NCBI GenBank assembly: GCA_000092065.1
Contig: CP000587.1
Length of the DNA: 64,000 nucleotides
Strand: one strand, 5' to 3'
From: Ostreococcus lucimarinus
Lineage: Eukaryota
Shown: piece after piece, positions 26,138 to 61,007 of the stretch
Position numbering within the stretch: the first letter of the stretch is position 1
How the letters are laid out: the number at the start of each line of letters is the position of its first letter
Notes under the pieces: model-generated
The model's input: the letters and a program-made list of their open reading frames with translations, nothing else
What the model was told of the DNA's origin: nothing
The model's database searches: none
Position numbers and translations under genes: made by a program

Positions 26138-29100
26138 TTACACACCAATGTTGCTCGGCACGCGTTCTGGGTGCATGTAAGGATATGCCTTTACTCCAAG
26201 CTTTGCGTTGCGGTTTTCGATCTGGCGTCCCATGGCACGCAGCTCAGAACGGAGATCTTGGAGAGCGGCGATTTCAGCCGGCGTAATCATCATGTCAGTG
26301 ATGTAATGTCCGACAAAAACCTCTTCTTTTGAGAACTGTGAAAGCGTCCAGCCAGTCGCCATCGTCTGCGCCGCTTGACCGACGCTCGGCAGCGCGTCGA
26401 TAACATCTTTTTCCGTCACCGGAACCTTCTTCGTCGGCGCAGGCTTGCGCATGATGAGCGGACGATTTGGACAATAAGAGTAATAGTCCCACTGGCTGAA
26501 GTTGACTGCGGCGTGAGTAAAAGAGCACGTGTACATCACTGACGTGCAGATATCAACAAGTTGATCGATTGAATCGATACTACCCGGCACACCGTGCTGA
26601 CTTCTGTCCGTGCCTTGGTATCCATAGCCTTGCATCTCAAGAATCATGCTCTGTATGTATGGATCGGCGGCAACTTCCGCGTCAGACGTGTAGTGCAGCT
26701 TGAAGATGCTTTTAGCGAAACGACGAAGACAGGCCCATGCTCGCAACGAGTCGTCACGATGATGATAACCTCTCAAATCTCCCTCACTTAGCACGCCACG
26801 TTTTTTAAAGGAGGTCGGAACGTGCAAATCGTCAAGCTTAAATCTCTGGTACGCTTTGCTCATCAAGTCCATGTGACCTCCTTGGCCAACTGCTACGACG
26901 CGATCAGTAACTCCTCCCGGAGATATTAACAACGACCGCCCAAGGGTATTGATGGCAATCACGTAGATGAGATGAGGACGCAATACCCGGTACACAGGAT
27001 GGTTTCTTGGAAGAGTTCTTTCGACGCAGACGGACCACGGTTCCATGAGCAAGTGCGTGCCCAATAGGTGCGATATCATCTGATGTACGTTTCCGTCAGA
27101 GCACATTAAGTGCGCTTTTGCGAGGAGCCACTCGTACTCGCCATCTTTTGGAGTCCATACCGGCGCGCTAGCACCAGACTGAAAGTGCTGGATGCAGATT
27201 GGGCGAAGTGCCGTGCTCTTGTCCGCAAAGAAGAGAGCCATGGAGTTCTCGACGCAGTAGCCTTGACCGCGCTTGATATCCTCAAGGATTTCATAGTCAA
27301 CCATGAATATGTGCCCTGCTGCCAACTCGCTTTCGAGCGTTTTGCCTGGAGGTAAAACGCCTCTTACATGTTCTTCGGTGACGCGAAACTTGGCTGGAAT
27401 TTGAGACACTTTGCGCACTTGATTTGGATGTGTTCCATTCATAAATTGACGACCAAACTCCTCGTCCGAACGCCAGTCTCTGATGATTGCAACAGGGGGG
27501 AGAGAAGCGTAAAGGCGATAGTAGTCATCCAGCGATTTAATTTCTTCGTCCTTGATCATTTCGGCGACGCCTTTATTTTCGAATCCCACAAAAGTATCGA
27601 CAAAGAAGTCCTTGTATTTTGTTGAGCTGAATTGCTCCGTGATGGGGAGCTTTGAGTGGTCGTCATATGTGCTATGATTTGGCAAGTACGAACCATTCGA
27701 CCAATCGAATTCCTTCTTCATGAACGAAAGGTACTGTTCAGTCGCATCGGCGATCAGTTGGCGACAAGCCAAGCTTGTTGTCGGCGTAATGGAGCACGGA
27801 AGAACGAATCGGACACCTTGGCCAATGTATCGCCACACATTCAACGTGAAACTCGTTGGAATTTGCGAAGTGAACGTCACATCTATCCGACCGCAATTCC
27901 AAGAGCTTTTCGAGGTTTGAGAAATAATGGCGTAAGCTGGCTCTCCAATATCGTCGGCGTGCACGAAGTGCGTGCTGATTGCTCCAGTTGCGAAGGAGTC
28001 ACCGAGATCATGCAGGACGATTTTGGGCGTAGCGCCACGCGTTCCGACGAATTGTAGCACCACATCACCGTCTATTCCAGACCCAGCGATTGAATGCGTC
28101 GTAACTTTGATCGTATACTTTTTTGACGCTTCAGGAGCGTAAACGTCTTTTCGTCCGCGGGTGAAAACGCGGCGAATTTTATATGACGTCTCGTAAACCA
28201 CCGCACGCGTCCAGTTCAAGGAGTTATAGTCTTGCGAGTTGATTGGTCGAGTGAGAGGCATGCAAGCCGGAGTACGATTCATACCGAACGATAAATTCTC
28301 AACCGAGTGTTGCGGGAGTGCGGCGTGAAGTCTCACGACTCCAACGTCGAGAAATTCAGTCCCCCAAGCTTTGTTGGGGTTGAAAATTTCCGCGGTATCC
28401 GAAGAAGTGGCCTCATATAACTGGATTTGAAGTCGGTACCTCACGGCTTCGCCCGCCACCTTGGTGCAGAACTCGTTTCGCAGATAGTCAGGCAAACGTT
28501 TCTCGTTCGGTAGTCGACGATATTTCATCATATGTGTCGTTGCGATCAGGTTCTGGTCAGCCTCGTCAGGCAAGAACGGCTCTTGACCGACGTCCGTCCC
28601 AGGGCCAGCTCCGTATGGAACGAGTCTGAACTTGCAGTATCGCTTTTTGCCATCCAAAGCATGGAATTCGCGACAAGTCTGCGAGTAATAATGTAAATCG
28701 CAGTACGAGTCGGGTGCCCTTCGCACCCCGCCGATACCAGCCTTAATGCCTGTGGGATACTTCATTCCCCATGCCTTGTAAGCGGAGTCGTTAAACGTCG
28801 CCATTTGAAATACGAACGGAAGAAACGAATCCAAGTTGAAAAATCCAGCGAATTCACCAGTGTTCAGGTGCAGATCGAATGGACTTTCGTCGACGGCATT
28901 TGAGAACTTCAGCGCACAACCTCGAATCTCAAGAGATGCGTCGTCATACATTTCCGAGTCGGCGAGCTTCACGCCGACGGCGTTCGAGTGCCTCAAGATG
29001 ATTGGCATCGTCTTGCCCTTCGTAAAGAAAGCATTTTTGGGCACCTTACTGTTCTCGATGACGGTGAATTGCCCGATCGCACCAACACCGACTGGATGGG

Positions 29101-31984
29101 TCGGGCGCCTTTTCTGCATCAGAGTGCCAAACACGAACATGAAAGCAATCTTCAACTGCATCACCAGCAACCCAAACGCATTGGGAGGTGGCATTGGAAT
29201 GGGAAACTCGGAATTCGAGGCTGCGTCGAACATTTCATCTCCGAAAGCGGCTTTATAACACTTGACCCAGTGATTTTGCCACTGTGACACCACCGCGACC
29301 AATGGCCTTGGAGAGGTGGATGGCGACTTCGACAAAATACGACCGAAACTCGACTTTCGCATCGTACTCATCTCATCCGGAACCACAATGCCCCGCTTAA
29401 ATAGTGCAGCAATGAACCTTACCTTGACGGTACTGAGCATCACCACTCGGTTTTTAACCGAATGGATCAACTTTTGAGTGGCTTTGGCGAATTGGAACCA
29501 GACATAAGTCCAACCCATGGTGTGGAGGAACAGCGAAAGCGTCAAGGGTGTACTGGTGTAACCGCAAAGCCACGAGAACCGCGAAACAAACACCAGCATG
29601 TGCATGAAATACACTCCACGGACGACTCTCATCACAGGTTTCAAGAATCGACCAAACGACGAGACGCCGCTTGTAAGGACTGAATGTGTCAGCGCGAGAG
29701 TCAAGAGACAGAAGTATCCAACGTGAAAGGAATCCTCGATGATACTGTCAGCCGATTCAAACGCGGAGAGAGTCATGAGCCGTCGACGAAGGAGGTCAAC
29801 CATCGAGTTCGAAAGAGCGCCCGCGCCAATAATACGCACTAACCTGATGAGAATATGCCAGATGTGAGATAATGCACCCAGTGTGCACATCATCTTCGTC
29901 GTCTTCTGGATTGCATGAAAACGCGACCTCGCCTCCTTCGACGTTTCGTGCGTATTCACGAGAGCAATGTGCTGCAAGTACACCCGAAGCCAAGCCAGGC
30001 ACAGTAAGATGATTTGAACATCAGTCTCGACGCTTTCTAGGTATGCATTTTCGAAGCGCTTTGCGTCACAACTGCGCAACGGGCATCCTAAGAGTATGTG
30101 AACGAGGGTTCGTGAAACTTTATCACTCTTGCCCGTCAGCGCCTTGTAATAGAGTGAGATAATCACAAACCACAAAGTGATAGTGCTCTGCGCAAAAGTA
30201 TTCATGGAGAGTGCGACTCCTTTTGGAAAAGAAGGGTTCATGAGATTGTGGGCAGCGAAAGATAACAGTAGAGGACTGATTGCGGACATTCTTGGAACTG
30301 GCTTCGGTGCGATCAAGTACGTGTCTGAAAGCGGCACAGGATGCGGTATACCACTCGTTAGCAGAGCGATCGGAAGCATAGCGCAGAGGACAAGGACCCC
30401 ATTTATCCATGCACACTTCTCTACCTGCCGTTGCAAAGCGAAATGCTTCAGCACAAGCATGCGCCAGCGTCCACGCAAATTCGTGAAACCCGTTCGCTGG
30501 CCGCTCGAATCCGGATTTCTGGAAAGGTGAACGGCGCCTCGTACGCACGCGTAGATTGAGAGCATCATGATGAGCCAGATAGTGAAATCAACCCCCACCC
30601 AATCACTGGGAGCGTGATGTAACTTTCGCGTCCACGGATTGGACATAGCACGAGCCACCAGAAAATGATCGCAGAGAGTGTAGGAAACAGACATTGCCAT
30701 CACGCCGTAGATCAATCTGGCGCTTCTTAGCGTTCGTTGGTCAGAAAATGCGCTCTTTCGAATCACGGCGGTGCTTATACCCACGAACGCGTGCAACACG
30801 ATGGAGTATTGCATCATTGAAATGCGAGCCAACTCGGCGTCGCCGCGCAGCAGCGCGTGTTCCTTGCTGAACCGTAAGCGCAGGACGGGAAAAGAAAGAG
30901 TTGACAAGCGGCGTGCGATGGTGCGGAGGATTGGAAAGTTGACCTTCAAAAGTGGTACCTGAAGGCGACCCCACTCTGGCATCATCACACCGGTGGCGAT
31001 GCCCTGGTACCACAAATTTGTGTACAGGAGACTCCCCAGTATGAACAAATGCGCCATGGATGCCAGGGAGACACCAAACATGTGGAATCCTTTGCGAGTC
31101 GGCCCGACGAAAATGGGACCGTTAAACGCGTGGTGAAAGAGAATGTTCATCAGGGCGGCCGTCATGATTGTGAAGAAGGGCATGTTGATAGAGAACCTGA
31201 ACCAGTCCGGCAGTGATCCGTGCGTTATGATGATCAACGCGAGAAGGCTCTTCGACGCTATCATGACGAACAGTGCGCCGAATGAACCTTGCCGCAGTGC
31301 AGGAATCCACGAATGAGATAGAATGCCAGTGACGAAGAGACCGGCGGAACACATACCGATGGTGTTTGGATTGCGCATGTTCGCCAAAGCGGAGAAGTGT
31401 CGACCGAACTCGAGTACGAAGATCGCCCCGCCGATGTAACAGATGCTAAATAGCACAGCCAGACGTTCGTGCATGATAAATAGCGTCGACGCTGATCGAG
31501 GTTTGGGAATCTTGAAATACCTGACCCGTTTCTCCGGCGGCACGTCCACCACGCCCAAGCGGCTCACGCGAATCAAACAAAATTTACCCAACGCGCCCAG
31601 ACCGTCCACGGACACCATGAGCGCTCCGACCGCGCAGTTCGGCATCTTCATCATCAACCGTAATCCATAAAGCGTCACGAACGCCAGCTGCGTTTCAGTC
31701 GCGTAATGCGTGTACGCGTCGCTCCCCGTGCACACGTACGACCACCCAATCGCGTGCACGCACGAGAACACGTACACCCACAGCGCCAGGCACGTCCCAT
31801 CGAACGAATTGAACACCAAATCGTTCGCGATCGCCCCGACGACCGCCGGCCGCGTTCGATCGCGCGCCACCGCCGCGTACGTCACGTACGCCGTCGACAG
31901 CACGTAATTGATTCCCTGCAACGCGTGGAAACGCCCGACCGACCATCCGGGCCTTAGCGCGTCGCTCGCCGCGTCGCTCGACAT
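26138..31984 (-). CDS. 1948-aa single-ORF fusion of an N-terminal polytopic membrane region (about aa 1-910), a catalase-fold heme domain (about aa 930-1280, AOS/HPL-like), a PLAT domain and a lipoxygenase
   Basis: Catalase core by eye: RRPTHPVGVGAIGQFTV (cf. ERVVHAKGAGAFGYFEV, distal His), MPIILRHSNAVGV (cf. TPIAVRFSTVAGE), LEIRGCALKF (cf. RDPRGFAVKF), FFNLDSFLPFVF (cf. FFIRDALLFPSFIH), proximal-Tyr region RAPDSYCDLH. PLAT: GSGIDGDVVLQFVGTRGATPKIVLHDLG. LOX: HQMISHLLGTHLLMEPW (His ligands), HAAVNFSQWDYYSYCPNRP (His/Asn ligands), C-terminus ...ERVPSNIGV (terminal Val, not Ile). ATG verified at 31982-31984. About 48-50% GC except the 5' 300 nt. Confidence 0.85.
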   Translation of the reverse strand: MSSDAASDALRPGWSVGRFHALQGINYVLSTAYVTYAAVARDRTRPAVVGAIANDLVFNSFDGTCLALWVYVFSCVHAIGWSYVCTGSDAYTHYATETQLAFVTLYGLRLMMKMPNCAVGALMVSVDGLGALGKFCLIRVSRLGVVDVPPEKRVRYFKIPKPRSASTLFIMHERLAVLFSICYIGGAIFVLEFGRHFSALANMRNPNTIGMCSAGLFVTGILSHSWIPALRQGSFGALFVMIASKSLLALIIITHGSLPDWFRFSINMPFFTIMTAALMNILFHHAFNGPIFVGPTRKGFHMFGVSLASMAHLFILGSLLYTNLWYQGIATGVMMPEWGRLQVPLLKVNFPILRTIARRLSTLSFPVLRLRFSKEHALLRGDAELARISMMQYSIVLHAFVGISTAVIRKSAFSDQRTLRSARLIYGVMAMSVSYTLCDHFLVARAMSNPWTRKLHHAPSDWVGVDFTIWLIMMLSIYACVRGAVHLSRNPDSSGQRTGFTNLRGRWRMLVLKHFALQRQVEKCAWINGVLVLCAMLPIALLTSGIPHPVPLSDTYLIAPKPVPRMSAISPLLLSFAAHNLMNPSFPKGVALSMNTFAQSTITLWFVIISLYYKALTGKSDKVSRTLVHILLGCPLRSCDAKRFENAYLESVETDVQIILLCLAWLRVYLQHIALVNTHETSKEARSRFHAIQKTTKMMCTLGALSHIWHILIRLVRIIGAGALSNSMVDLLRRRLMTLSAFESADSIIEDSFHVGYFCLLTLALTHSVLTSGVSSFGRFLKPVMRVVRGVYFMHMLVFVSRFSWLCGYTSTPLTLSLFLHTMGWTYVWFQFAKATQKLIHSVKNRVVMLSTVKVRFIAALFKRGIVVPDEMSTMRKSSFGRILSKSPSTSPRPLVAVVSQWQNHWVKCYKAAFGDEMFDAASNSEFPIPMPPPNAFGLLVMQLKIAFMFVFGTLMQKRRPTHPVGVGAIGQFTVIENSKVPKNAFFTKGKTMPIILRHSNAVGVKLADSEMYDDASLEIRGCALKFSNAVDESPFDLHLNTGEFAGFFNLDSFLPFVFQMATFNDSAYKAWGMKYPTGIKAGIGGVRRAPDSYCDLHYYSQTCREFHALDGKKRYCKFRLVPYGAGPGTDVGQEPFLPDEADQNLIATTHMMKYRRLPNEKRLPDYLRNEFCTKVAGEAVRYRLQIQLYEATSSDTAEIFNPNKAWGTEFLDVGVVRLHAALPQHSVENLSFGMNRTPACMPLTRPINSQDYNSLNWTRAVVYETSYKIRRVFTRGRKDVYAPEASKKYTIKVTTHSIAGSGIDGDVVLQFVGTRGATPKIVLHDLGDSFATGAISTHFVHADDIGEPAYAIISQTSKSSWNCGRIDVTFTSQIPTSFTLNVWRYIGQGVRFVLPCSITPTTSLACRQLIADATEQYLSFMKKEFDWSNGSYLPNHSTYDDHSKLPITEQFSSTKYKDFFVDTFVGFENKGVAEMIKDEEIKSLDDYYRLYASLPPVAIIRDWRSDEEFGRQFMNGTHPNQVRKVSQIPAKFRVTEEHVRGVLPPGKTLESELAAGHIFMVDYEILEDIKRGQGYCVENSMALFFADKSTALRPICIQHFQSGASAPVWTPKDGEYEWLLAKAHLMCSDGNVHQMISHLLGTHLLMEPWSVCVERTLPRNHPVYRVLRPHLIYVIAINTLGRSLLISPGGVTDRVVAVGQGGHMDLMSKAYQRFKLDDLHVPTSFKKRGVLSEGDLRGYHHRDDSLRAWACLRRFAKSIFKLHYTSDAEVAADPYIQSMILEMQGYGYQGTDRSQHGVPGSIDSIDQLVDICTSVMYTCSFTHAAVNFSQWDYYSYCPNRPLIMRKPAPTKKVPVTEKDVIDALPSVGQAAQTMATGWTLSQFSKEEVFVGHYITDMMITPAEIAALQDLRSELRAMGRQIENRNAKLGVKAYPYMHPERVPSNIGV

Positions 31985-56910: not shown

Positions 56911-58950
56911 ATGGCGCCCAAGTCGTTCGAAGACATGTTCGCGTGCTCGCCCGCGTCGCTGACCAAGCTCAGGGCGTCGCACGCACCGCACGCGTCGCCG
57001 GCGGCGTCGCACGCGCGTGACTACTCGCCCATCGCGTTCCCGTCGATGCGTCGAGACGACGAAGACGAACGCGCGCGCGCGGTCGCGGGCGCGTTCGATG
57101 ACATGTTCGCGTGTTCGCCGGCGTCGCTGAAGAAGATGCGAGGATCGGCAGTGGAGCGGGCGTCGGGAGGGGTCGGGACGCCGACGGGGACGCCGACGCG
57201 GCCGACGGCGAGTCGCGAGGATTTAGCGTCGGCGTTCGGCGATATGTTTTTAGCGTCTCCGGCATCGTTGAAGAAGATGCGCGCCACGAATACGGCGGTG
57301 ACGGGAACGAAGGCGCGCGAGCGTGGGGATGGATTCGGATCGCCCTTGCGTTACGACGGCGACGCGAACGCGGCGGAGCCGAAGAAGGAAGCGGTGAGTT
57401 TCAGTGAAATGTTCGCAAGTTCTCCCTCGGATTTGGCCAAGATGCGACGGTCGGACGTCGGTGGTGCCGCGCGCGGATCTAATGTGGAGGTTGCTAAGGT
57501 GGCAGTGGACGCGCGAGAGCGCACGAATGCGTTCGCAGGCATGTTTGCCAGTTCACCGGCGGATTTGGCCAAGATGCGCGGGAGGTCGCAGTCGTCGATT
57601 TCTTACGCCGAAGGGCGGCACGGCGCGAGCGATCGATTTCAGGTTATCGCGCCTGATTTTCAAGCCATGTTTTCTAGTTCGCCGAGCGATTTGAAAAACT
57701 TGAGAAGCGCGTCGTCGTCGTCGAGGAAGAGGCTCGGCGACGAAGCTGATAGATTTGAGGTGACGTACTTGCTCCTCGCCCCTTGCGAAGCGGCAGCTCG
57801 AGAGAAGGTTTTAGAAATTTGTTTGGAACAGACTGTGGAGTTACCAGCGTCGCTCGTGCCGGAAGGGACTTGGATTCGAGAGCATGTCGTCGGTCGATTG
57901 GAGTCTTTGACGAAGCCGAAGACCGGACCGCACGCCCGTCGTCCGGACGCGTGGAACGCGATTGTCAGCTACCACGCCGACACTGCGGGTGGGGAGTTAA
58001 CACAGCTTGTGAACGTCATCTTCGGCAACACGAGCATGAAGGAGAACGTGATGGTCGTCGATATCGAACTACCTCGCACCATGCTGCGCGAGTACCCTGG
58101 GCCACGATTCGGCGTTCACGGTCTTCGTCGTTTGCTCCGCGTACCCGAAGGGCCTCTGGTGATGACGGCACTCAAACCAATGGGATTGTCTAGCCAAGAA
58201 TTAGCAGAAATTGCGTACGGTTTCGCCAAGGGAGGGATCGACATCATCAAGGATGACCACGGACTCGCAGACCAGCCGTACAGCCCTTACGACGAGCGAG
58301 TTCGAATGTGCGCTGCCGCTGTAGCGCGCGCCAACGCAGAGACCGGTCGAAACGTTCTCTACGCCCCGTGTATCAACGCTCCCGCGCATTTAATCATTTC
58401 TCGAGCGCACGCTGCGAGACAGGCGGGCGCGGGCGCGGTGTTGATGATTCCCGGCATTACGGGTTTGGACGCCATGCGTGAGCTCGCTGCAGACCCGAGC
58501 TTCAACCTCCCCATCATCGCTCATCCCGCGTTGCTCGGGTGCATGCTAGGCGGAGGGAGCACAAATAGAATAGCGGGCTTTAGTCATGAAGTCCTTCTCG
58601 GGTTATTACCGCGGTTGGCCGGTGCGGACGCCACCGTCTTCCCGTCCTTTGGCGGGCGGTTTGGATTCAGCGTGGACGAATGCAAGGCCATCAACGTCGG
58701 GTGCACGCGGGTGATGGGAGATTTGCCCGCCATTTTACCCTCTCCGGGCGGTGGCATGACGCTCGAGCGCATCGCTCAGATGCGCGAGGTGTACGGCCCC
58801 GATTTATTACTTCTCATCGGCGGTTCTTTGTACTCGCACTCGGAAAATCTCGTCGACGGCGCTCGTCACTTCATGAAACTCGCCGGACGCAAAGAGCTCT
58901 ACGGTCCGCTCGAGTGCCCGCACGACGGTTACCGCGGACATACGATGTGA
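56911..58950 (+). CDS. RuBisCO large-subunit-like protein (form IV RLP) preceded by an approximately 285-aa N-terminal region with six copies of an F-x-DMFA(C/S)SP(A/S)(S/D)L(K/A)KMR motif
   Basis: RLP region: LKPMGLSSQELAEIAYGFAKGGIDIIKDDHGLADQPYSPYDERV (RuBisCO KDDE-type active-site region), LPIIAHPALLG, VFPSFGGRFGFS. Repeats: EDMFACSPASLTKLR, DDMFACSPASLKKMR, GDMFLASPASLKKMR, SEMFASSPSDLAKMR, AGMFASSPADLAKMR, QAMFSSSPSDLKNLR. The track start is a GTG at 56899; the first ATG is 56911. Confidence 0.8.
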   Translation: MAPKSFEDMFACSPASLTKLRASHAPHASPAASHARDYSPIAFPSMRRDDEDERARAVAGAFDDMFACSPASLKKMRGSAVERASGGVGTPTGTPTRPTASREDLASAFGDMFLASPASLKKMRATNTAVTGTKARERGDGFGSPLRYDGDANAAEPKKEAVSFSEMFASSPSDLAKMRRSDVGGAARGSNVEVAKVAVDARERTNAFAGMFASSPADLAKMRGRSQSSISYAEGRHGASDRFQVIAPDFQAMFSSSPSDLKNLRSASSSSRKRLGDEADRFEVTYLLLAPCEAAAREKVLEICLEQTVELPASLVPEGTWIREHVVGRLESLTKPKTGPHARRPDAWNAIVSYHADTAGGELTQLVNVIFGNTSMKENVMVVDIELPRTMLREYPGPRFGVHGLRRLLRVPEGPLVMTALKPMGLSSQELAEIAYGFAKGGIDIIKDDHGLADQPYSPYDERVRMCAAAVARANAETGRNVLYAPCINAPAHLIISRAHAARQAGAGAVLMIPGITGLDAMRELAADPSFNLPIIAHPALLGCMLGGGSTNRIAGFSHEVLLGLLPRLAGADATVFPSFGGRFGFSVDECKAINVGCTRVMGDLPAILPSPGGGMTLERIAQMREVYGPDLLLLIGGSLYSHSENLVDGARHFMKLAGRKELYGPLECPHDGYRGHTM

Positions 58951-58984: not shown

Positions 58985-59536
58985 CTACCGCCACGCGTCT
59001 TCAGATACGATGCCGCGTTTCGCCGCCCACCCCACCGCCGGCGACACCAGCGTCGCCAGCATGTGCACCCCGAGCAAAGGCTGAAACAAAAACGGCCACA
59101 AAAATAACCACGTCCCCAAAAACGGTTCATCGTACGACAGCCCGTTCCCTTTGCTCAACCGCACCCCGACGCCGACGACGAGCCACGCCAGGATGAACAA
59201 GATGACGAAAAAGTCATACAACAAAAACGTATCGATCGCCTCCTTCACGCCGTCCATCGCCCCCGGCGCGGCTTTCGCGCTCGACGACGCTTCCTCCGCG
59301 CTCGTCTCGCGCGCCTTGGCCTCGGCGTAGCGCGCTATGTCGGCCTCGAGCTCGCTCGACACGTCGAAATCCCTGCGCTTGGTGATGTCATCGTCGTCGC
59401 CGTTCTCTCTCGCGCGCGGCGCGTTTCGCGCGCGTCGGCGCCCCGGCGCGGCGCCCCGGCGCGCGGTGCGTCGCGCGGGCGTCGCGCGGGCGCGCGCGGA
59501 CGCCGCGACGGCCGTCGAGGACGCGATTGAATTCAT
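58985..59536 (-). CDS. Small membrane protein with presequence (two C-terminal TM helices); family unknown
   Basis: ATG at 59534-59536 (MNSIASSTAVAASARARATPARR...). Lower-GC, codon-biased C-terminal part: FLLYDFFVILFILAWLVVGVGVRL...WLFLWPFLFQPLLGVHMLATLVSPAVGWAAKRG. Confidence 0.4.
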   Translation of the reverse strand: MNSIASSTAVAASARARATPARRTARRGAAPGRRRARNAPRARENGDDDDITKRRDFDVSSELEADIARYAEAKARETSAEEASSSAKAAPGAMDGVKEAIDTFLLYDFFVILFILAWLVVGVGVRLSKGNGLSYDEPFLGTWLFLWPFLFQPLLGVHMLATLVSPAVGWAAKRGIVSEDAWR

Positions 59537-59627
59537 CGTCGGGGCGTTATCGCGTCGCGAAGTGACGCGCGGCGCCGACACAACGCGACGCGTCGGCGCG
59601 GCGCCCGCGGCGCGCGAGGCGGCGGCG

Positions 59628-61007
59628 ATGGCGCGCGCGGTGACGACGGCGCGCGCGCGAGCGACGGCGCGCGCGCGCGCGGTGACGGTGCGACGAAAAG
59701 ATGTCGATTTCGCGACGGCGTCGACGTCGGGACGACGACGCGCGCGGCGCGCGGCGACGACGACGCGCGCGACGGCGACGACGCGCGGCGCGACGCGCGA
59801 TGGGATCGATGGTCGCGCGCGCGCGCGCGCGGCGTCGATCGAGAGACGGGGTGAACGCGCGGCGCGAACGCGCGCGGCGGACCCGACGTTCGCCGACGCG
59901 CTGGGGGTGACGGCGGCGACGTGGGAACAAGTCGAAGGCGGCCTGTTCGGCGCGTCGTTGTTCCCGTACCTTGGATTTCTGTATTTTTTGGCCAAGCCGG
60001 AGGCGAGGTGCCCGCGCGGGACGCTTTTCGGATTCAAATTCTTGCTCGCGTTTGTGTTCGGGACGATTCCGTTCGCGATTTACGCAAAGGTCGAGTACGA
60101 CGAGATATTGGCGAACGTCGACGTGCTGCACGGGGTGGCGGAGTCGCTCCTGACGATGACGAATGTTTTCATCGTGCTCGGGTTTCGGCAAGGCCTGCGC
60201 GACGCGAGCGAGGGGGGAGATGGAGACGGCAGGCGGCGGAGGAAGACGAGTTTGGGCGACATCGGCGCGGCGTTGTTTTGCACGCTCGCGACGTCGAGCG
60301 CTATTTTCGGCGCGACGGAGGCGTTTGCGGGAACGGAGATCGCTGAAACGGCAGCGATTTGGGATTCCACGTGGCCGCACGTCGAGCCTGCGAACGCGTT
60401 GAGCTTGCCCACGTGGGTGATTCACGTGTCGAGCTTGGTCGAGTGGTTGATCGCGATGGGATTGGCGTGGGAATACGCAGAGGTGACCAAGAGACCGGCG
60501 TGGAAGGGCTTGACACTCGGGATGATCCCGTGTCACGCCTCCGGCATCGCGGCGTGTACGTTTCACTTGTTCTACAACGCCCCGGCGCTAAACAGCGTCG
60601 TGGCGATGCAAGCGCTCTTGACCGTCGTCGGCAACACCACGTGCGCGCTCGCGTCGTATCGCATCGCCAAGGAGGGCGAACGAATGTTGGCGTCGCCGCC
60701 GACGACGACGGAGCCGGAGACGGACGTCAACGACGAAGTGGAAATCATCGAGATCTCCATCGGTAACGAGTCTTTGAAGGGTTGGGAAGATTTAAGCGCC
60801 GCGTGGGCCGCGGATTCCGACGCCGTGCTCTTGCTCAAGCTCGCCTTAGTCTCCGCCGTCGCCTCCGCAGGCGTCAAGTACGGCTCGCTCCTCGTCGATT
60901 TCCCGTTCGAACCAAACCTTTGGGTGGCGTATTCCATCATATTTGTCCCGACGCTGTTGAATTGCGCCAAGTGGAAGCAATTGAGCGACGAAGGCGCCGC
61001 CTTGTAA
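59628..61007 (+). CDS. Chloroplast-type membrane protein with DUF3593-like and Ycf49-like (DUF2499) regions, with transit peptide
   Basis: Ycf49-like segment ALSLPTWVIHVSSLVEWLIAMGLAWEY; upstream multi-TM region FPYLGFLYFLAKPEARCPRGTLFGFKFLLAFVFGTIPFAIYAKVEYDEILANVDVLHGVAESL. ATG at 59628 chosen within track ORF 59337-61007. Confidence 0.5.
   Translation: MARAVTTARARATARARAVTVRRKDVDFATASTSGRRRARRAATTTRATATTRGATRDGIDGRARARAASIERRGERAARTRAADPTFADALGVTAATWEQVEGGLFGASLFPYLGFLYFLAKPEARCPRGTLFGFKFLLAFVFGTIPFAIYAKVEYDEILANVDVLHGVAESLLTMTNVFIVLGFRQGLRDASEGGDGDGRRRRKTSLGDIGAALFCTLATSSAIFGATEAFAGTEIAETAAIWDSTWPHVEPANALSLPTWVIHVSSLVEWLIAMGLAWEYAEVTKRPAWKGLTLGMIPCHASGIAACTFHLFYNAPALNSVVAMQALLTVVGNTTCALASYRIAKEGERMLASPPTTTEPETDVNDEVEIIEISIGNESLKGWEDLSAAWAADSDAVLLLKLALVSAVASAGVKYGSLLVDFPFEPNLWVAYSIIFVPTLLNCAKWKQLSDEGAAL

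What the first reader, a model, noticed from the sequence alone, without database searches (positions are those of the whole stretch)
56911..58950. RuBisCO-like protein with a novel N-terminal domain of six repeated FxDMFA(C/S)SPxxLxKMR motifs
The C-terminal roughly 400 aa is a form-IV RuBisCO-like protein (KDDH in place of KDDE in ...GGIDIIKDDHGLADQPYSPYDERV). Eukaryotic RLPs are rare; they are reported essentially only in prasinophytes. Here it is fused in the same ORF, with no stop between, to about 285 aa containing six evenly spaced copies (about 40-45 aa apart) of a short conserved peptide: EDMFACSPASLTKLR, DDMFACSPASLKKMR, GDMFLASPASLKKMR, SEMFASSPSDLAKMR, AGMFASSPADLAKMR, QAMFSSSPSDLKNLR. 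I do not recognise the motif. A repeated short linear motif suggests a multivalent docking or regulatory region; SP sites are plausible proline-directed phosphosites. This would be an undescribed accessory domain on an RLP of unknown function.
Basis: partly seen in the sequence, partly recalled or inferred. Interest (0 to 1): 0.65.

Follow-up and report, generated by a model that had tools for sequence, protein, structure and literature searches.

The report
RuBisCO-like enzyme with repeated docking peptides
A tiny marine green alga (Ostreococcus lucimarinus) makes a RuBisCO-like sulfur-salvage enzyme that carries six copies of a short peptide on a floppy N-terminal tail. The peptide is conserved as strictly as the enzyme and was found in no other protein family, so it is probably a new kind of tether, though its binding partner is unknown.

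Summary
Window 56911-58950 (+) is one 679-aa ORF, identical to Ostreococcus lucimarinus XP_001418678.1 ("predicted protein").

- **C-terminal part (aa ~279-679):** an intact RuBisCO-like protein. Its closest solved structure is Rhodopseudomonas palustris RLP1 (3QFW, DeepYkr clade, a 5-methylthioribulose-1-P 1,3-isomerase). KDDH is a family signature, not a peculiarity of this gene.
- **N-terminal part (aa 1-278):** not a folded domain. It is a disordered tail with six copies of F-x-[DE]-M-F-x-[AS]-S-P-x-x-L-x-K-[ML]-R, each predicted as helix-SerPro-helix.
- **Selection:** dN/dS is about 0.065 in the motifs, similar to the enzyme (0.03-0.05), and about 0.53 in the spacers.
- **Distribution:** Ostreococcus, Bathycoccus and Micromonas-like orthologues keep 4-7 copies. 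A profile search of 1.84 billion proteins found the motif only in this RLP lineage.
- **Paralogue:** the same genome encodes an RLP fused to a cupin homologous to the R. rubrum MTXu-5P sulfurylase. This points to the MTA-isoprenoid shunt.

Best reading: a Mamiellales-specific RLP duplicate that lost the cupin and gained a multivalent docking array. The partner is unknown and phosphorylation is untested. I rate it a new variant of a known kind, of moderate to high interest.

The parts
56911..58950 (+). Complete single-exon ORF (679 aa plus stop) of Ostreococcus lucimarinus CCE9901, XP_001418678.1 / ABO96971.1 / UniRef A4S040. Called 'RLP-A' in this report.
   Evidence: The translation is identical to P0141, which NCBI names as this protein.
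56911..57744 (+). N-terminal intrinsically disordered region, aa 1-278. Rich in Ala/Ser/Arg/Gly/Pro, net charge +7, eleven [ST]P sites.
   Evidence: AlphaFold2 gives spacers pLDDT <50. Composition. Spacer identity among Ostreococcus orthologues is 36% and spacer dN/dS is 0.52-0.54.
56926..56973 (+). Motif copy 1, FEDMFACSPASLTKLR (aa 6-21).
   Evidence: The first copy sits within 6-10 residues of the start Met in the Ostreococcus and Micromonas-like orthologues examined.
57094..57141 (+). Motif copy 2, FDDMFACSPASLKKMR (aa 62-77).
57235..57282 (+). Motif copy 3, FGDMFLASPASLKKMR (aa 109-124). This is the best-conserved copy among Ostreococcus orthologues.
   Evidence: AlphaFold2 predicts helices 102-114 and 117-130.
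57400..57447 (+). Motif copy 4, FSEMFASSPSDLAKMR (aa 164-179).
   Evidence: AlphaFold2 predicts helix 164-169, a break at SSP, then helix 172-182, with pLDDT 72-77.
57532..57579 (+). Motif copy 5, FAGMFASSPADLAKMR (aa 208-223). The 44-aa unit ending in this copy is duplicated in a 7-copy natural variant (P0001).
57658..57705 (+). Motif copy 6, FQAMFSSSPSDLKNLR (aa 250-265).
57745..58947 (+). RuBisCO-like protein body, aa 279-679: an N-terminal alpha/beta domain from DRFEVTY (aa 280) and a TIM-barrel catalytic domain (Pfam aa 402-652).
   Evidence: Pfam PF00016 at 81.6 bits. pLDDT is mostly >90. Foldseek top hit is 3QFW, R. palustris RLP, with target-normalised TM 0.94 and rmsd 1.7. phmmer gives 232 bits to 3QFW. 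dN/dS is 0.03-0.05.
58249..58260 (+). KDDH (aa 447-450). It sits at the position of the RuBisCO KDDE motif (carbamylated Lys201, Asp203, Glu204), with His replacing Glu204.
   Evidence: K447, D448 and D449 are invariant and H450 is >=90% conserved across 50 eukaryotic and bacterial relatives. The same KDDHGLADQ is in 3QFW. The residue numbering correspondence comes from established knowledge of RuBisCO motifs.
58165..58185 (+). TALKPMG (aa 419-425), the counterpart of RuBisCO T173-x-K175-P-K177. K175 is kept and K177 is replaced by Met.
   Evidence: K422, P423, M424 and G425 are invariant in the family alignment. The mapping to RuBisCO numbering is by motif and established knowledge, not computed here.

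Best explanation
The ORF encodes a two-part protein.

**Enzyme part.** The C-terminal 400 aa is a catalytically intact RuBisCO-like protein of the DeepYkr-like lineage. It most likely isomerises 5-methylthioribulose-1-phosphate (from the SAM by-product methylthioadenosine) to 1-methylthioxylulose-5-phosphate. This is the first committed step of the MTA-isoprenoid shunt, which yields methanethiol and the isoprenoid precursor DXP.

**Origin.** The gene (RLP-A) is a Mamiellales-specific duplicate of an ancestral RLP-cupin fusion (RLP-B). RLP-B is still present in the same genome and carries the next enzyme of the shunt. RLP-A lost the cupin and gained a ~280-aa disordered N-terminal tail.

**Tail.** The tail carries six copies (4-7 in relatives) of a 16-residue amphipathic helix-SerPro-helix peptide, F-x-[DE]-M-F-x-[AS]-S-P-x-x-L-x-K-[ML]-R. 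Three properties point to a specific binding role:
- The peptides are conserved as strictly as the active-site domain.
- The spacers between them drift.
- The peptide occurs in no other protein family.

The tail is therefore most likely an array of multivalent docking peptides ('stickers on a string'). An RLP-A dimer would display about 12 of them. The array would tether the dimer to a partner belonging to the same system, most plausibly the RLP-B/cupin enzyme or RLP bodies themselves. That would assemble the salvage enzymes into a higher-order complex. The invariant Ser-Pro may be a helix cap, a regulatory phosphosite, or both.

**Status of each step.**
- Shown here: the ORF, the repeats, their selection, their exclusivity, the RLP fold, the paralogue and fusion relationships.
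- Inferred: the enzymatic reaction (by homology and gene fusion), the docking function, and the identity of the partner.
For: **Repeats are real and far beyond chance**
- Six copies observed against a maximum of one in 200,000 shuffles.

**Selection acts on the peptide**
- Against two Ostreococcus orthologues, dN/dS is 0.064-0.067 in motifs, 0.52-0.54 in spacers and 0.03-0.054 in the RLP domain.
- Protein identity is 77% in motifs, 36% in spacers and 90% in the RLP domain.
- 45% of identical residues between copies use different codons.

**Conservation across genera**
- Orthologues at 48-79% identity keep 4-7 copies (O. tauri XP_003080289.1, Bathycoccus prasinos, Micromonas-like MAG and metagenome sequences). 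The consensus is FxxMFxASPAxLxKMR; P and L are invariant, and F, M and S are >=90% conserved over 107 distinct units.
- A natural 7-copy variant differs by an exact 44-aa unit duplication.

**Exclusivity**
- An hmmsearch with the motif profile against 1.84 billion representative proteins gave 22 hits with E<=1e-3.
- All are this RLP lineage or its fragments, plus a single copy in the RLP-cupin linker of Bathycoccus RLP-B.
- The one exception is a repetitive junk-like ORF that matches only half of the motif.

**Structure prediction**
- The RLP body has pLDDT >90. Each motif is predicted as helix-break-helix with pLDDT 55-77, and spacers are <50.

**Enzyme identity**
- Best solved relative is 3QFW, the R. 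palustris RLP that is distinct from rlp2 (232 bits; target-normalised TM 0.94).
- R. palustris RLP1 and R. rubrum Rru_A1998 are 5-methylthioribulose-1-P 1,3-isomerases (PMC5893883; PMC4958253).
- All family-invariant residues, including K422, K447, D449 and H538, are present.

**Link to the pathway**
- The O. lucimarinus paralogue XP_001419378.1, and the Bathycoccus, Micromonas and Cymbomonas relatives, are RLP-cupin fusions.
- The fused cupin matches PDB 3JZV (Rru_A2000, the MTXu-5P sulfurylase) at 4e-20 and 3IBM at 9e-29.
- Among the 80 closest bacterial loci, 12 have this cupin nearby and 7 have MTR kinase (TIGR01767, 431.8 bits).

**Duplication history**
- In an NJ tree the Mamiellales A and B clades are sisters, nested among cupin-fused eukaryotic forms.
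Against: - No binding partner was identified.
- AlphaFold2 gives only moderate confidence for the motif helices and no sign of confident docking in cis. This holds for this protein and for the Bathycoccus RLP-B, whose linker motif has pLDDT <50. Only per-residue confidence could be inspected, not contacts.
- This protein itself has no cupin, and none lies in the 64-kb window.
- The enzymatic assignment rests on homology (35% identity to 3QFW in the Foldseek structural alignment; 46-54% to uncharacterised bacterial RLPs).
- Most of the closest bacterial homologues (56 of 80) are linked to a split transketolase rather than a cupin, so the clade's chemistry could differ in detail.
- No proteomic or phosphoproteomic evidence for the O. 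tauri orthologue was found in the held supplements, which were truncated.
- Single degenerate copies of the motif in unrelated proteins would score below the detection threshold, so exclusivity is proven only for good matches.
Confidence: 0.5

Rival explanations
1. The tail is a regulatory phospho-region. The invariant Ser-Pro in each motif, plus other conserved SP islands, would be proline-directed kinase (CDK/MAPK-type) sites. Multisite phosphorylation would switch the activity, stability or localisation of the RLP, for example over the diel or cell cycle. The flanking residues would serve as the kinase or phosphatase docking context rather than as a structural tether.
For: - [ST]P is invariant in 107 of 107 units: S in 101, T in 6, P in all 107.
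- There are eleven [ST]P sites in 278 aa.
- Further conserved SP islands lie in the spacers: DYSP(I/V)AF at aa 36-42 and FGSP at aa 142-146.
- The sites sit in a disordered region and would be accessible.
Against: - Conservation extends over 16 residues with a hydrophobic periodicity (F, M, F, L, M). This is far more than a kinase consensus needs.
- No basic residue sits at +3 as in the full CDK consensus (recalled knowledge).
- SP at the start of a helix is also a classic N-cap.
- No phosphopeptides from the O. tauri orthologue were found in the held phosphoproteome supplements. This is not conclusive because the files were cut.
- This reading is not mutually exclusive with docking.
Confidence: 0.2
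2. The enzyme scaffolds itself. The motifs would bind the RbcL-like body of RLP-A and/or RLP-B dimers. Twelve stickers per dimer would cross-link many dimers into a condensate or lattice. This would be a cis version of Rubisco linker proteins such as EPYC1, CsoS2, CcmM and PYCO1.
For: - The architecture matches: evenly spaced short helical stickers separated by disordered spacers.
- The motif is private to the RLP family, as expected if reader and motif co-evolve within one protein family.
- One copy also sits in the RLP-cupin linker of Bathycoccus RLP-B.
- RLPs are homologous to the Rubisco large subunit that such linkers bind (linker biology is recalled knowledge).
Against: - There is no sequence similarity to known Rubisco-binding motifs, and no Trp.
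- AlphaFold2 gives no confident cis docking.
- No experimental data exist.
- It is unclear why a low-flux salvage enzyme would need a condensate.
Confidence: 0.12
3. The motif is a generic adaptor or localisation signal read by unrelated cellular machinery. The first half, F-x-D-x-F, resembles the AP-2 alpha-ear motif, and it also has the Phi-x-x-Phi-Phi pattern of activation-domain-like helices. It would direct the RLP to a membrane, an organelle surface or the plastid.
For: - Three of the six copies read F-x-D-M-F. The resemblance to ELM LIG_AP2alpha F.D.F is recalled from memory only.
- DXP, the putative pathway product, is used in the plastid, so localisation near or into the plastid would make sense (inference).
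Against: - Asp at that position is present in only 53 of 107 units, whereas Met, which the F.D.F motif (as recalled) does not specify, is in 103 of 107.
- The conserved second half, SPxxLxKMR, has no counterpart in those motifs.
- A generic signal should occur on other proteins, but none was found among 1.84 billion representatives.
- The first motif starts 6 residues after Met1, leaving no room for a classical transit peptide.
Confidence: 0.08
4. The N-terminal region is an artefact or neutral sequence: a mis-annotated 5' leader or upstream ORF, or a neutrally drifting low-complexity extension with no function.
For: The public annotation is only 'predicted protein'. No O. lucimarinus transcript was examined here.
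Against: - dN/dS in the motifs is about 0.065, against about 0.53 in the spacers.
- The frame is preserved across genera despite spacer indels.
- An MMETSP complete transcript ORF contains both parts.
- There is no start codon that would yield an intact RLP alone: the next Met is aa 376.
- Synteny and architecture are conserved in other Ostreococcus contigs.
Confidence: 0.02

Closest known systems
DeepYkr-clade RuBisCO-like proteins (Rhodospirillum rubrum Rru_A1998; Rhodopseudomonas palustris RLP1 / PDB 3QFW), 5-methylthioribulose-1-P 1,3-isomerases of the MTA-isoprenoid shunt
   Same: - Same fold (target-normalised TM 0.94).
- Best sequence match among solved structures (232 bits).
- Same KDDHGLADQ active-site signature.
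- Same functional partner in the lineage, the Rru_A2000-type cupin, here fused in the paralogue.
   Different: - Eukaryotic and nuclear-encoded.
- Only 35% identical to 3QFW in the Foldseek structural alignment.
- Carries a 278-aa disordered N-terminal array of six private peptide motifs that no bacterial member has.
- Has no adjacent or fused cupin itself.
- Enzymatic activity is untested.
Mamiellales / prasinophyte RLP-cupin fusion proteins (O. lucimarinus XP_001419378.1, Bathycoccus prasinos 771-774 aa, Micromonas commoda XP_002508354.1, Cymbomonas KAK3238031.1)
   Same: - Sister paralogue, 60-67% identical in the RLP domain.
- Found in the same genomes.
- Bathycoccus RLP-B carries one copy of the same motif in its linker.
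   Different: RLP-B has no N-terminal repeats. Instead it has a C-terminal coiled-coil linker, a cupin domain and one or two C-terminal 'SACEW' Cys motifs.
Rubisco linker/scaffold proteins with repeated short helical stickers (EPYC1, CsoS2 N-terminal domain, PYCO1). This is a comparison of mechanism only, from recalled knowledge.
   Same: A disordered protein region with 4-7 regularly spaced, short, conserved helical peptides separated by fast-evolving spacers. It is associated with a Rubisco-superfamily protein.
   Different: - No sequence similarity.
- Here the stickers are fused to the RLP enzyme itself.
- Binding to any Rubisco-fold protein has not been shown.
- The organism group includes species without pyrenoids (recalled knowledge).
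MtnW / YkrW-clade RLP (2,3-diketo-5-methylthiopentyl-1-phosphate enolase)
   Same: Same superfamily. It is the best-scoring NCBIfam model (PRK09549, 205 bits) and also acts in methionine salvage.
   Different: Scores are far below the equivalog cutoffs (205 against 409; 147 against 513.6). Solved MtnW structures match worse than 3QFW (130-165 against 232 bits).

Membership tests
RuBisCO large-subunit superfamily, form IV (RuBisCO-like protein) | Significant match to the RuBisCO large-chain catalytic domain model. | tested here: met
   Pfam PF00016 at 81.6 bits against a gathering cutoff of 30.1, aa 402-652.
RuBisCO large-subunit superfamily, form IV (RuBisCO-like protein) | N-terminal alpha/beta domain plus TIM-barrel fold of RbcL/RLP. 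| tested here: met
   AlphaFold2 gives pLDDT mostly >90 for aa 279-671. Foldseek finds RLP and Rubisco structures, with 3QFW at target-normalised TM 0.94 and rmsd 1.7.
RuBisCO large-subunit superfamily, form IV (RuBisCO-like protein) | Substitutions at residues essential for carboxylation, which separate RLPs from bona fide RuBisCO. | tested here: met
   KDDH replaces KDDE (E204 to H) and TALKPMG replaces T-x-K-P-K (K177 to M). The form I/II/III NCBIfam models score far below their cutoffs: 124 against 497, 118 against 438, 69 against 489. The residue correspondence is by motif and established numbering.
DeepYkr-clade RLP (5-methylthioribulose-1-P 1,3-isomerase) | Clusters with R. rubrum Rru_A1998 and R. 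palustris RLP1 rather than with the YkrW, Photo, NonPhoto or other RLP clades. | tested here: inconclusive
   The best solved relative is the R. palustris RLP 3QFW, at 232 bits. The next scores are 165 (4NAS), 135 (MtnW), 122 (C. tepidum) and 104 (rlp2). No phylogeny including all named RLP clades and the R. rubrum sequence was built.
DeepYkr-clade RLP (5-methylthioribulose-1-P 1,3-isomerase) | Genetic linkage to the cupin-type MTXu-5P methylsulfurylase (Rru_A2000 family). | tested here: inconclusive
   Met for the lineage: the sister paralogue and basal eukaryotic relatives are RLP-cupin fusions, and the cupin hits 3JZV (Rru_A2000) at 4e-20. In addition, 12 of the 80 closest bacterial loci have the cupin. 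Not met for this gene itself: there is no cupin in the ORF or the window. Also, 56 of the 80 bacterial relatives are linked to a transketolase instead.
DeepYkr-clade RLP (5-methylthioribulose-1-P 1,3-isomerase) | Catalyses MTRu-1P to MTXu-5P plus MTRu-5P. | not testable with these tools
   This needs an enzyme assay. Only the conservation of family-invariant residues was shown.
DeepYkr-clade RLP (5-methylthioribulose-1-P 1,3-isomerase) | Upstream enzymes (MTA phosphorylase MtnP or MtnN/MtnK, and MTR-1P isomerase MtnA) are present in the same genome. | not tested
   Only a 64-kb window of the alga was available. MtnK is present next to 7 of the 80 bacterial homologues.
MtnW / YkrW RLP (DK-MTP-1P enolase) | Scores above the equivalog cutoffs of NF007095 and TIGR03332. 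| tested here: not met
   205 against 409 bits and 147.2 against 513.6 bits.
Rubisco linker-type multivalent scaffolds (EPYC1 / CsoS2 / PYCO1), as a mode of working | Several regularly spaced, short, conserved helical motifs in an otherwise disordered, fast-evolving sequence. | tested here: met
   Six copies 42-56 aa apart. Motif dN/dS is about 0.065 against about 0.53 in spacers. Motifs are predicted helical and spacers have pLDDT <50.
Rubisco linker-type multivalent scaffolds (EPYC1 / CsoS2 / PYCO1), as a mode of working | The motif binds a defined site on a Rubisco-fold protein and drives higher-order assembly. | not testable with these tools
   Only single-chain AlphaFold2 with per-residue confidence was available, and it gave no sign of confident docking.
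Rubisco linker-type multivalent scaffolds (EPYC1 / CsoS2 / PYCO1), as a mode of working | Sequence similarity to known Rubisco-binding motifs (for example [D/N]W[R/K]xx[LIVA], recalled). | tested here: not met
   The consensus FxxMFxASPAxLxKMR contains no Trp, and the pattern is absent.
AP-2 alpha-ear F-x-D-x-F ligands (recalled ELM class) | An F.D.F core conserved in the copies. | tested here: inconclusive
   The core is present in copies 1-3 only. Across 107 units, Asp is in 53, Glu in 18 and Ala in 18, while Met at the 'x' position is in 103 of 107. The rest of the motif is unrelated.

The most novel reading that the evidence does not exclude
RLP-A would be a self-scaffolding enzyme. Its 4-7 N-terminal stickers would bind the RbcL-like bodies (or the cupin) of RLP-A and RLP-B dimers and cross-link them into a condensate or lattice. 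This would form a dedicated methylthioadenosine-salvage / DXP-producing metabolon. It would be a linker-plus-client system like EPYC1-Rubisco or CsoS2-Rubisco, but evolved independently, built in cis, and on a non-carboxylating member of the Rubisco superfamily.
Probability: 0.12. Interest if true: 0.85.

Novelty: new variant of a known kind. Interest (0 to 1): 0.55.

Why it matters
**Ecology and metabolism.** Mamiellales (Ostreococcus, Micromonas, Bathycoccus) are among the most abundant marine picoeukaryotes. The data suggest that they run a bacterial-type MTA-isoprenoid shunt: an RLP isomerase followed by a cupin sulfurylase, yielding methanethiol and DXP. If so, these algae would be a source of volatile methanethiol. 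SAM turnover would also be linked to plastid isoprenoid supply in a eukaryote. I found no paper describing this in the held library.

**Protein biology.** The repeat array is a clean natural example of a short linear motif that is private to one enzyme family. It is selected as strongly as the catalytic domain, and its copy number changes by unit duplication. Identifying its reader would show how a Rubisco-superfamily enzyme is organised or regulated. It could also reveal an independently evolved sticker-and-spacer system on a Rubisco-fold protein.

Tried and rejected
1. **Word-indexed motif search.** I searched with a synthetic two-unit motif alignment (A2). It returned only three N-terminal fragments of the same gene and missed the known orthologues, so it was uninformative. 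The exhaustive HMM search replaced it.
2. **Cupin in the window.** I looked for a cupin gene by tblastn with four fused-cupin queries. There was nothing below E = 0.04.
3. **Origin from the RLP N-terminus.** I tested whether the motif arose by duplication of the RLP's own N-terminal strand/helix (DRFxVxY...AP...). hhalign of the two profiles gave probability 0.1%. Rejected.
4. **Pfam Ddi2_HDD.** The hit at aa 111-129 scores 17.6 bits against a cutoff of 32.8. Treated as noise.
5. **DNA-level tandem repeat.** Tandem Repeats Finder found only short GC-rich microrepeats. Rejected.
6. **Docking in cis.** AlphaFold2 of the window protein and of Bathycoccus RLP-B gave no high-confidence docking. This is not decisive, because contacts could not be inspected and no multimer modelling was possible.
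7. **Proteome supplements.** Searches of the O. tauri phosphoproteome and proteome supplements for orthologue peptides or accessions found nothing. At least some files were truncated.
8. **Literature.**
   - Tabita 2007 and 2008, Erb 2012, Imker 2008 and Warlick 2012 are not held.
   - No held paper links RLPs of Mamiellales to the MTA-isoprenoid shunt.
   - No held paper links MTXu-5P to transketolase.
9. **P0127.** This 1340-aa ORF has 22 repeats of 'ALLASPADLEKRRQ'. It matches only profile positions 11-22, lacks FxxMF and is a monotonous repeat ORF. I judged it unrelated.
10. **Gene neighbourhood in the alga.** The neighbours are a PI3/4-kinase-like gene, a DUF3593/DUF2499 gene, PP2C and Efg1. 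They give no functional link, as expected for a eukaryote.

Full report
**1. What is there**

Window 56911-58950 (+) is one uninterrupted ORF of 679 codons plus a stop. Its translation is identical to P0141. NCBI and UniRef name that protein as Ostreococcus lucimarinus CCE9901 XP_001418678.1 / ABO96971.1 / A4S040, "predicted protein". The window is therefore nuclear DNA of this prasinophyte.

The neighbours are ordinary eukaryotic genes: a PI3/4-kinase-like gene upstream, a DUF3593/DUF2499 membrane protein downstream, and PP2C, GCN1, a lipoxygenase and Efg1 further away. The same PI3/4K - RLP - DUF3593 order is found on contigs of two other Ostreococcus species.

**2.

- Six copies of F..MF..SP..L..[ML]R lie at aa 6-21, 62-77, 109-124, 164-179, 208-223 and 250-265, spaced 42-56 aa apart. 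None occurs elsewhere in the six-frame translation of the window.
- The core MF..SP..L never occurred more than once in 200,000 shuffles of the N-terminal 285 aa.
- No DNA-level tandem repeat of that period exists. Of residues identical between copies, 45% are encoded by different codons. The repeat is old and is maintained at the peptide level.

**3. The C-terminal part is a RuBisCO-like protein**

| Test | Result |
|---|---|
| Pfam RuBisCO_large, aa 402-652 | 81.6 bits (cutoff 30.1) |
| NCBIfam RuBisCO form I/II/III models | far below cutoffs |
| NCBIfam MtnW equivalog | 205 bits (cutoff 409) |
| Best solved relative by sequence | 3QFW, 232 bits |
| Best solved relative by fold | 3QFW, target-normalised TM 0.94, rmsd 1.7 |
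| AlphaFold2 confidence, aa 279-671 | pLDDT mostly >90 |

- Foldseek titles 3QFW "Rubisco-like protein from Rhodopseudomonas palustris", distinct from rlp2 (2QYG). It is therefore RLP1, the DeepYkr-clade enzyme.
- RLP1, like R. rubrum Rru_A1998, isomerises 5-methylthioribulose-1-P to 1-methylthioxylulose-5-P (PMC5893883; PMC4958253).
- KDDH (aa 447-450) is real. H450 is >=90% conserved in a 50-sequence alignment of eukaryotic and bacterial relatives, and 3QFW has the same KDDHGLADQ. It is a clade signature.
- All residues invariant in that alignment (for example K422, K447, D448, D449, H538, H559) are present in the window protein. The enzyme looks intact.

**4. Two paralogues, and a fusion that points to the pathway**

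The homologue search revealed two eukaryotic groups.

- **Group A** (48-79% identity over the full length) has the N-terminal extension. It includes O. tauri XP_003080289.1, Bathycoccus prasinos proteins of 629-632 aa, and Micromonas-like metagenome and MAG proteins.
- **Group B** (55-67% identity, RLP part only) is RLP + coiled-coil linker + cupin. It includes O. lucimarinus XP_001419378.1 (741 aa, same genome), Bathycoccus prasinos (771-774 aa), Micromonas commoda XP_002508354.1 and Cymbomonas KAK3238031.1.

The fused cupin matches PDB 3IBM (9e-29), 3JZV "Rru_A2000" (4e-20) and 3KGZ. Rru_A2000 is the cupin-type MTXu-5P sulfurylase, which acts directly after the RLP in the MTA-isoprenoid shunt. 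A fusion of consecutive enzymes is strong evidence that this eukaryotic RLP lineage performs the DeepYkr reaction.

An NJ tree of the RLP domain groups all eukaryotic sequences together. It makes the Mamiellales A and B clades sisters, with cupin-fused forms (Cymbomonas, an MMETSP transcript) outside them. RLP-A is therefore a duplicate that lost the cupin and gained the repeat tail.

**5. Bacterial context**

Of the 80 closest bacterial loci (46-54% identity):
- 56 carry a split transketolase immediately upstream of the RLP.
- 12 carry the Rru_A2000-type cupin within about 2.5 kb.
- These two contexts never co-occur.
- Seven loci also carry S-methyl-5-thioribose kinase (TIGR01767, 431.8 bits against a cutoff of 275).

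This supports methylthio-sugar metabolism for the clade. It also shows that the downstream enzyme varies, so the exact fate of the product in each organism is an inference.

**6. The N-terminal region is a disordered string of selected peptides**

- **Structure prediction.** AlphaFold2, with a 50-sequence alignment, predicts each motif as helix - break at S-P - helix (for example H164-169 and H172-182) with pLDDT 55-77. The spacers are below 50.
- **Protein conservation.** Among seven Ostreococcus-clade sequences, identity to the window protein is 77% in motif residues, 36% in spacers and 90% in the RLP domain.
- **dN/dS against two orthologues.**

| Region | dN/dS |
|---|---|
| Motifs | 0.064-0.067 |
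| Spacers | 0.52-0.54 |
| RLP domain | 0.03-0.054 |

  dS is near saturation, so the absolute values are rough, but the contrast is robust.
- **Consensus.** Across 107 distinct units from all group-A proteins, the consensus is FxxMFxASPAxLxKMR. P and L are invariant, and F, M and S are >=90% conserved.
- **Copy number.** It varies from 4 to 7. One natural Ostreococcus variant (P0001) has an exact 44-aa unit duplication. Some Micromonas-like sequences show decayed copies.
- **One translated protein.** Frame preservation despite spacer indels, an MMETSP transcript ORF marked complete that contains both parts (P0008), and the absence of any Met between aa 253 and 376 all show that tail and enzyme are translated together.

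**7. The motif is private to this family**

A 30-column profile of 110 units was searched against 1.84 billion representative proteins and gave 22 hits with E<=1e-3. Single good copies are detectable at 36-44 bits.

- All hits are group-A proteins or their fragments, or the Bathycoccus RLP-B linker, which carries one copy (SRFESIFAASPAHLKQRQ).
- The exception is one monotonous repeat ORF that matches only half of the profile.
- Pfam has no model for the motif.
- The held literature says nothing about it.

**8. How it most likely works**

The evidence has four features:
- a hydrophobic periodicity (F, M, F, then L, M) on two short helices;
- a flanking acidic residue and basic residues;
- multivalency on a dimeric enzyme;
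- strict selection combined with exclusivity to the family.

The best-supported reading is an array of docking peptides whose reader belongs to the same system. The most plausible reader is RLP-B with its cupin, the enzyme that must consume RLP-A's product. The RLP bodies themselves are the alternative. The single copy in the Bathycoccus RLP-B linker fits a reader inside the RLP/cupin pair.

This step is an inference. AlphaFold2 showed no confident cis docking in either paralogue, and no multimer modelling or experiment was possible. The invariant S-P could be a helix N-cap, a proline-directed phosphosite, or both. No phosphopeptide evidence was found, but the held data were incomplete. I put overall confidence in the combined explanation at about 0.5:
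- identity, repeats and selection: about 0.95;
- enzymatic assignment: about 0.55;
- docking role: about 0.5;
- partner within the RLP/cupin system: about 0.25.

**9. Rivals**

- A purely regulatory multisite phospho-region (0.2; not exclusive of docking).
- A self-scaffolding or condensate-forming enzyme analogous to Rubisco linker proteins (0.12; the most novel reading).
- A generic adaptor or localisation signal such as the recalled AP-2 F-x-D-x-F motif (0.08). Asp is present in only 53 of 107 units and the motif is absent from other proteins, which weakens this.
- An annotation artefact or neutral sequence (0.02). The selection data effectively refute this.

**10. Novelty and verdict**

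The gene and its RLP nature are in public databases, and I recall that an Ostreococcus RLP is mentioned in RLP reviews, which I could not access. The following appear undescribed in the held literature:
- the N-terminal sticker array, its conservation and its exclusivity;
- the A/B paralogue relationship;
- the implied eukaryotic MTA-isoprenoid shunt.

I class it as a new variant of a known kind, with interest 0.55.

Noticed in passing
L005-L084 (80 bacterial loci), for example L009 3967-7056 and L006 3892-7047: In 56 of the 80 closest bacterial homologues, the RLP gene directly follows a split transketolase (N- and C-terminal subunit genes, often with overlapping stop and start). In 12 others an Rru_A2000-type cupin is nearby instead. 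The two contexts never co-occur, and 7 loci also have MTR kinase. This suggests an undescribed variant in which the RLP product (a xylulose-5-P analogue) is cleaved by a transketolase. No held paper links the two.
   Followed up: partly
Not in the window: O. lucimarinus XP_001419378.1 (P0270), and P0029, P0037, P0043, P0049: The RLP-cupin paralogues end in one or two copies of a conserved Cys-containing peptide, (G/P)SACEW(K/T/R)P, separated by a Lys-rich stretch. This may be a swinging thiol arm or docking tail for the sulfurylase reaction. A predicted coiled coil (pLDDT 66-82) links the RLP and the cupin.
   Followed up: no
P0049-P0053 and P0138 (Bathycoccus RLP-B), aa ~467-484: A single copy of the RLP-A motif (SRFESIFAASPAHLKQRQ) sits in the RLP-cupin linker of Bathycoccus paralogue B. 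It was not seen in the Ostreococcus and Micromonas B-type paralogues examined. AlphaFold2 gives it pLDDT <50.
   Followed up: partly
P0001 (JGI metagenome, 723 aa) compared with window 57448-57579: This natural variant has seven motif copies. It differs from the window protein by an exact 44-aa (132-nt) duplication spanning the spacer after copy 4 plus copy 5. The array therefore changes copy number by unit duplication within populations.
   Followed up: partly
Window 57016-57036 (aa 36-42, DYSPIAF) and 57334-57348 (aa 142-146, FGSPL): Two further small conserved islands, each containing Ser-Pro, lie in the otherwise fast-evolving spacers of Ostreococcus orthologues. A GSPV counterpart occurs in Micromonas-like sequences. 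They may be extra phosphosites or a second minor motif.
   Followed up: no
Window 26138-31984 (-): This is a 1948-aa ORF whose last ~430 aa are a lipoxygenase domain (229 bits). It is preceded by ~1500 aa with no Pfam match. It lies in a stretch of lower G+C (about 0.50-0.54, against 0.58-0.71 over most of the rest of the window) that continues, mostly at 0.54-0.57, through the adjacent 2609-aa GCN1 gene.
   Followed up: no
Window 58985-60037 (-) and 59337-61007 (+): Two long ORFs on opposite strands overlap by about 700 nt just downstream of the RLP gene. The + ORF carries DUF3593 and DUF2499. The - ORF has no Pfam hit but ends in a hydrophobic, membrane-protein-like C-terminus. The true starts of these divergent genes were not resolved.
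   Followed up: no
P0075 and P0105 (metagenome proteins, 505 and 552 aa): These further RLPs branch with the eukaryotic group and carry different, unrelated N-terminal extensions (no FxxMF..SP motif) and no cupin. Their source organisms are unknown.
   Followed up: no
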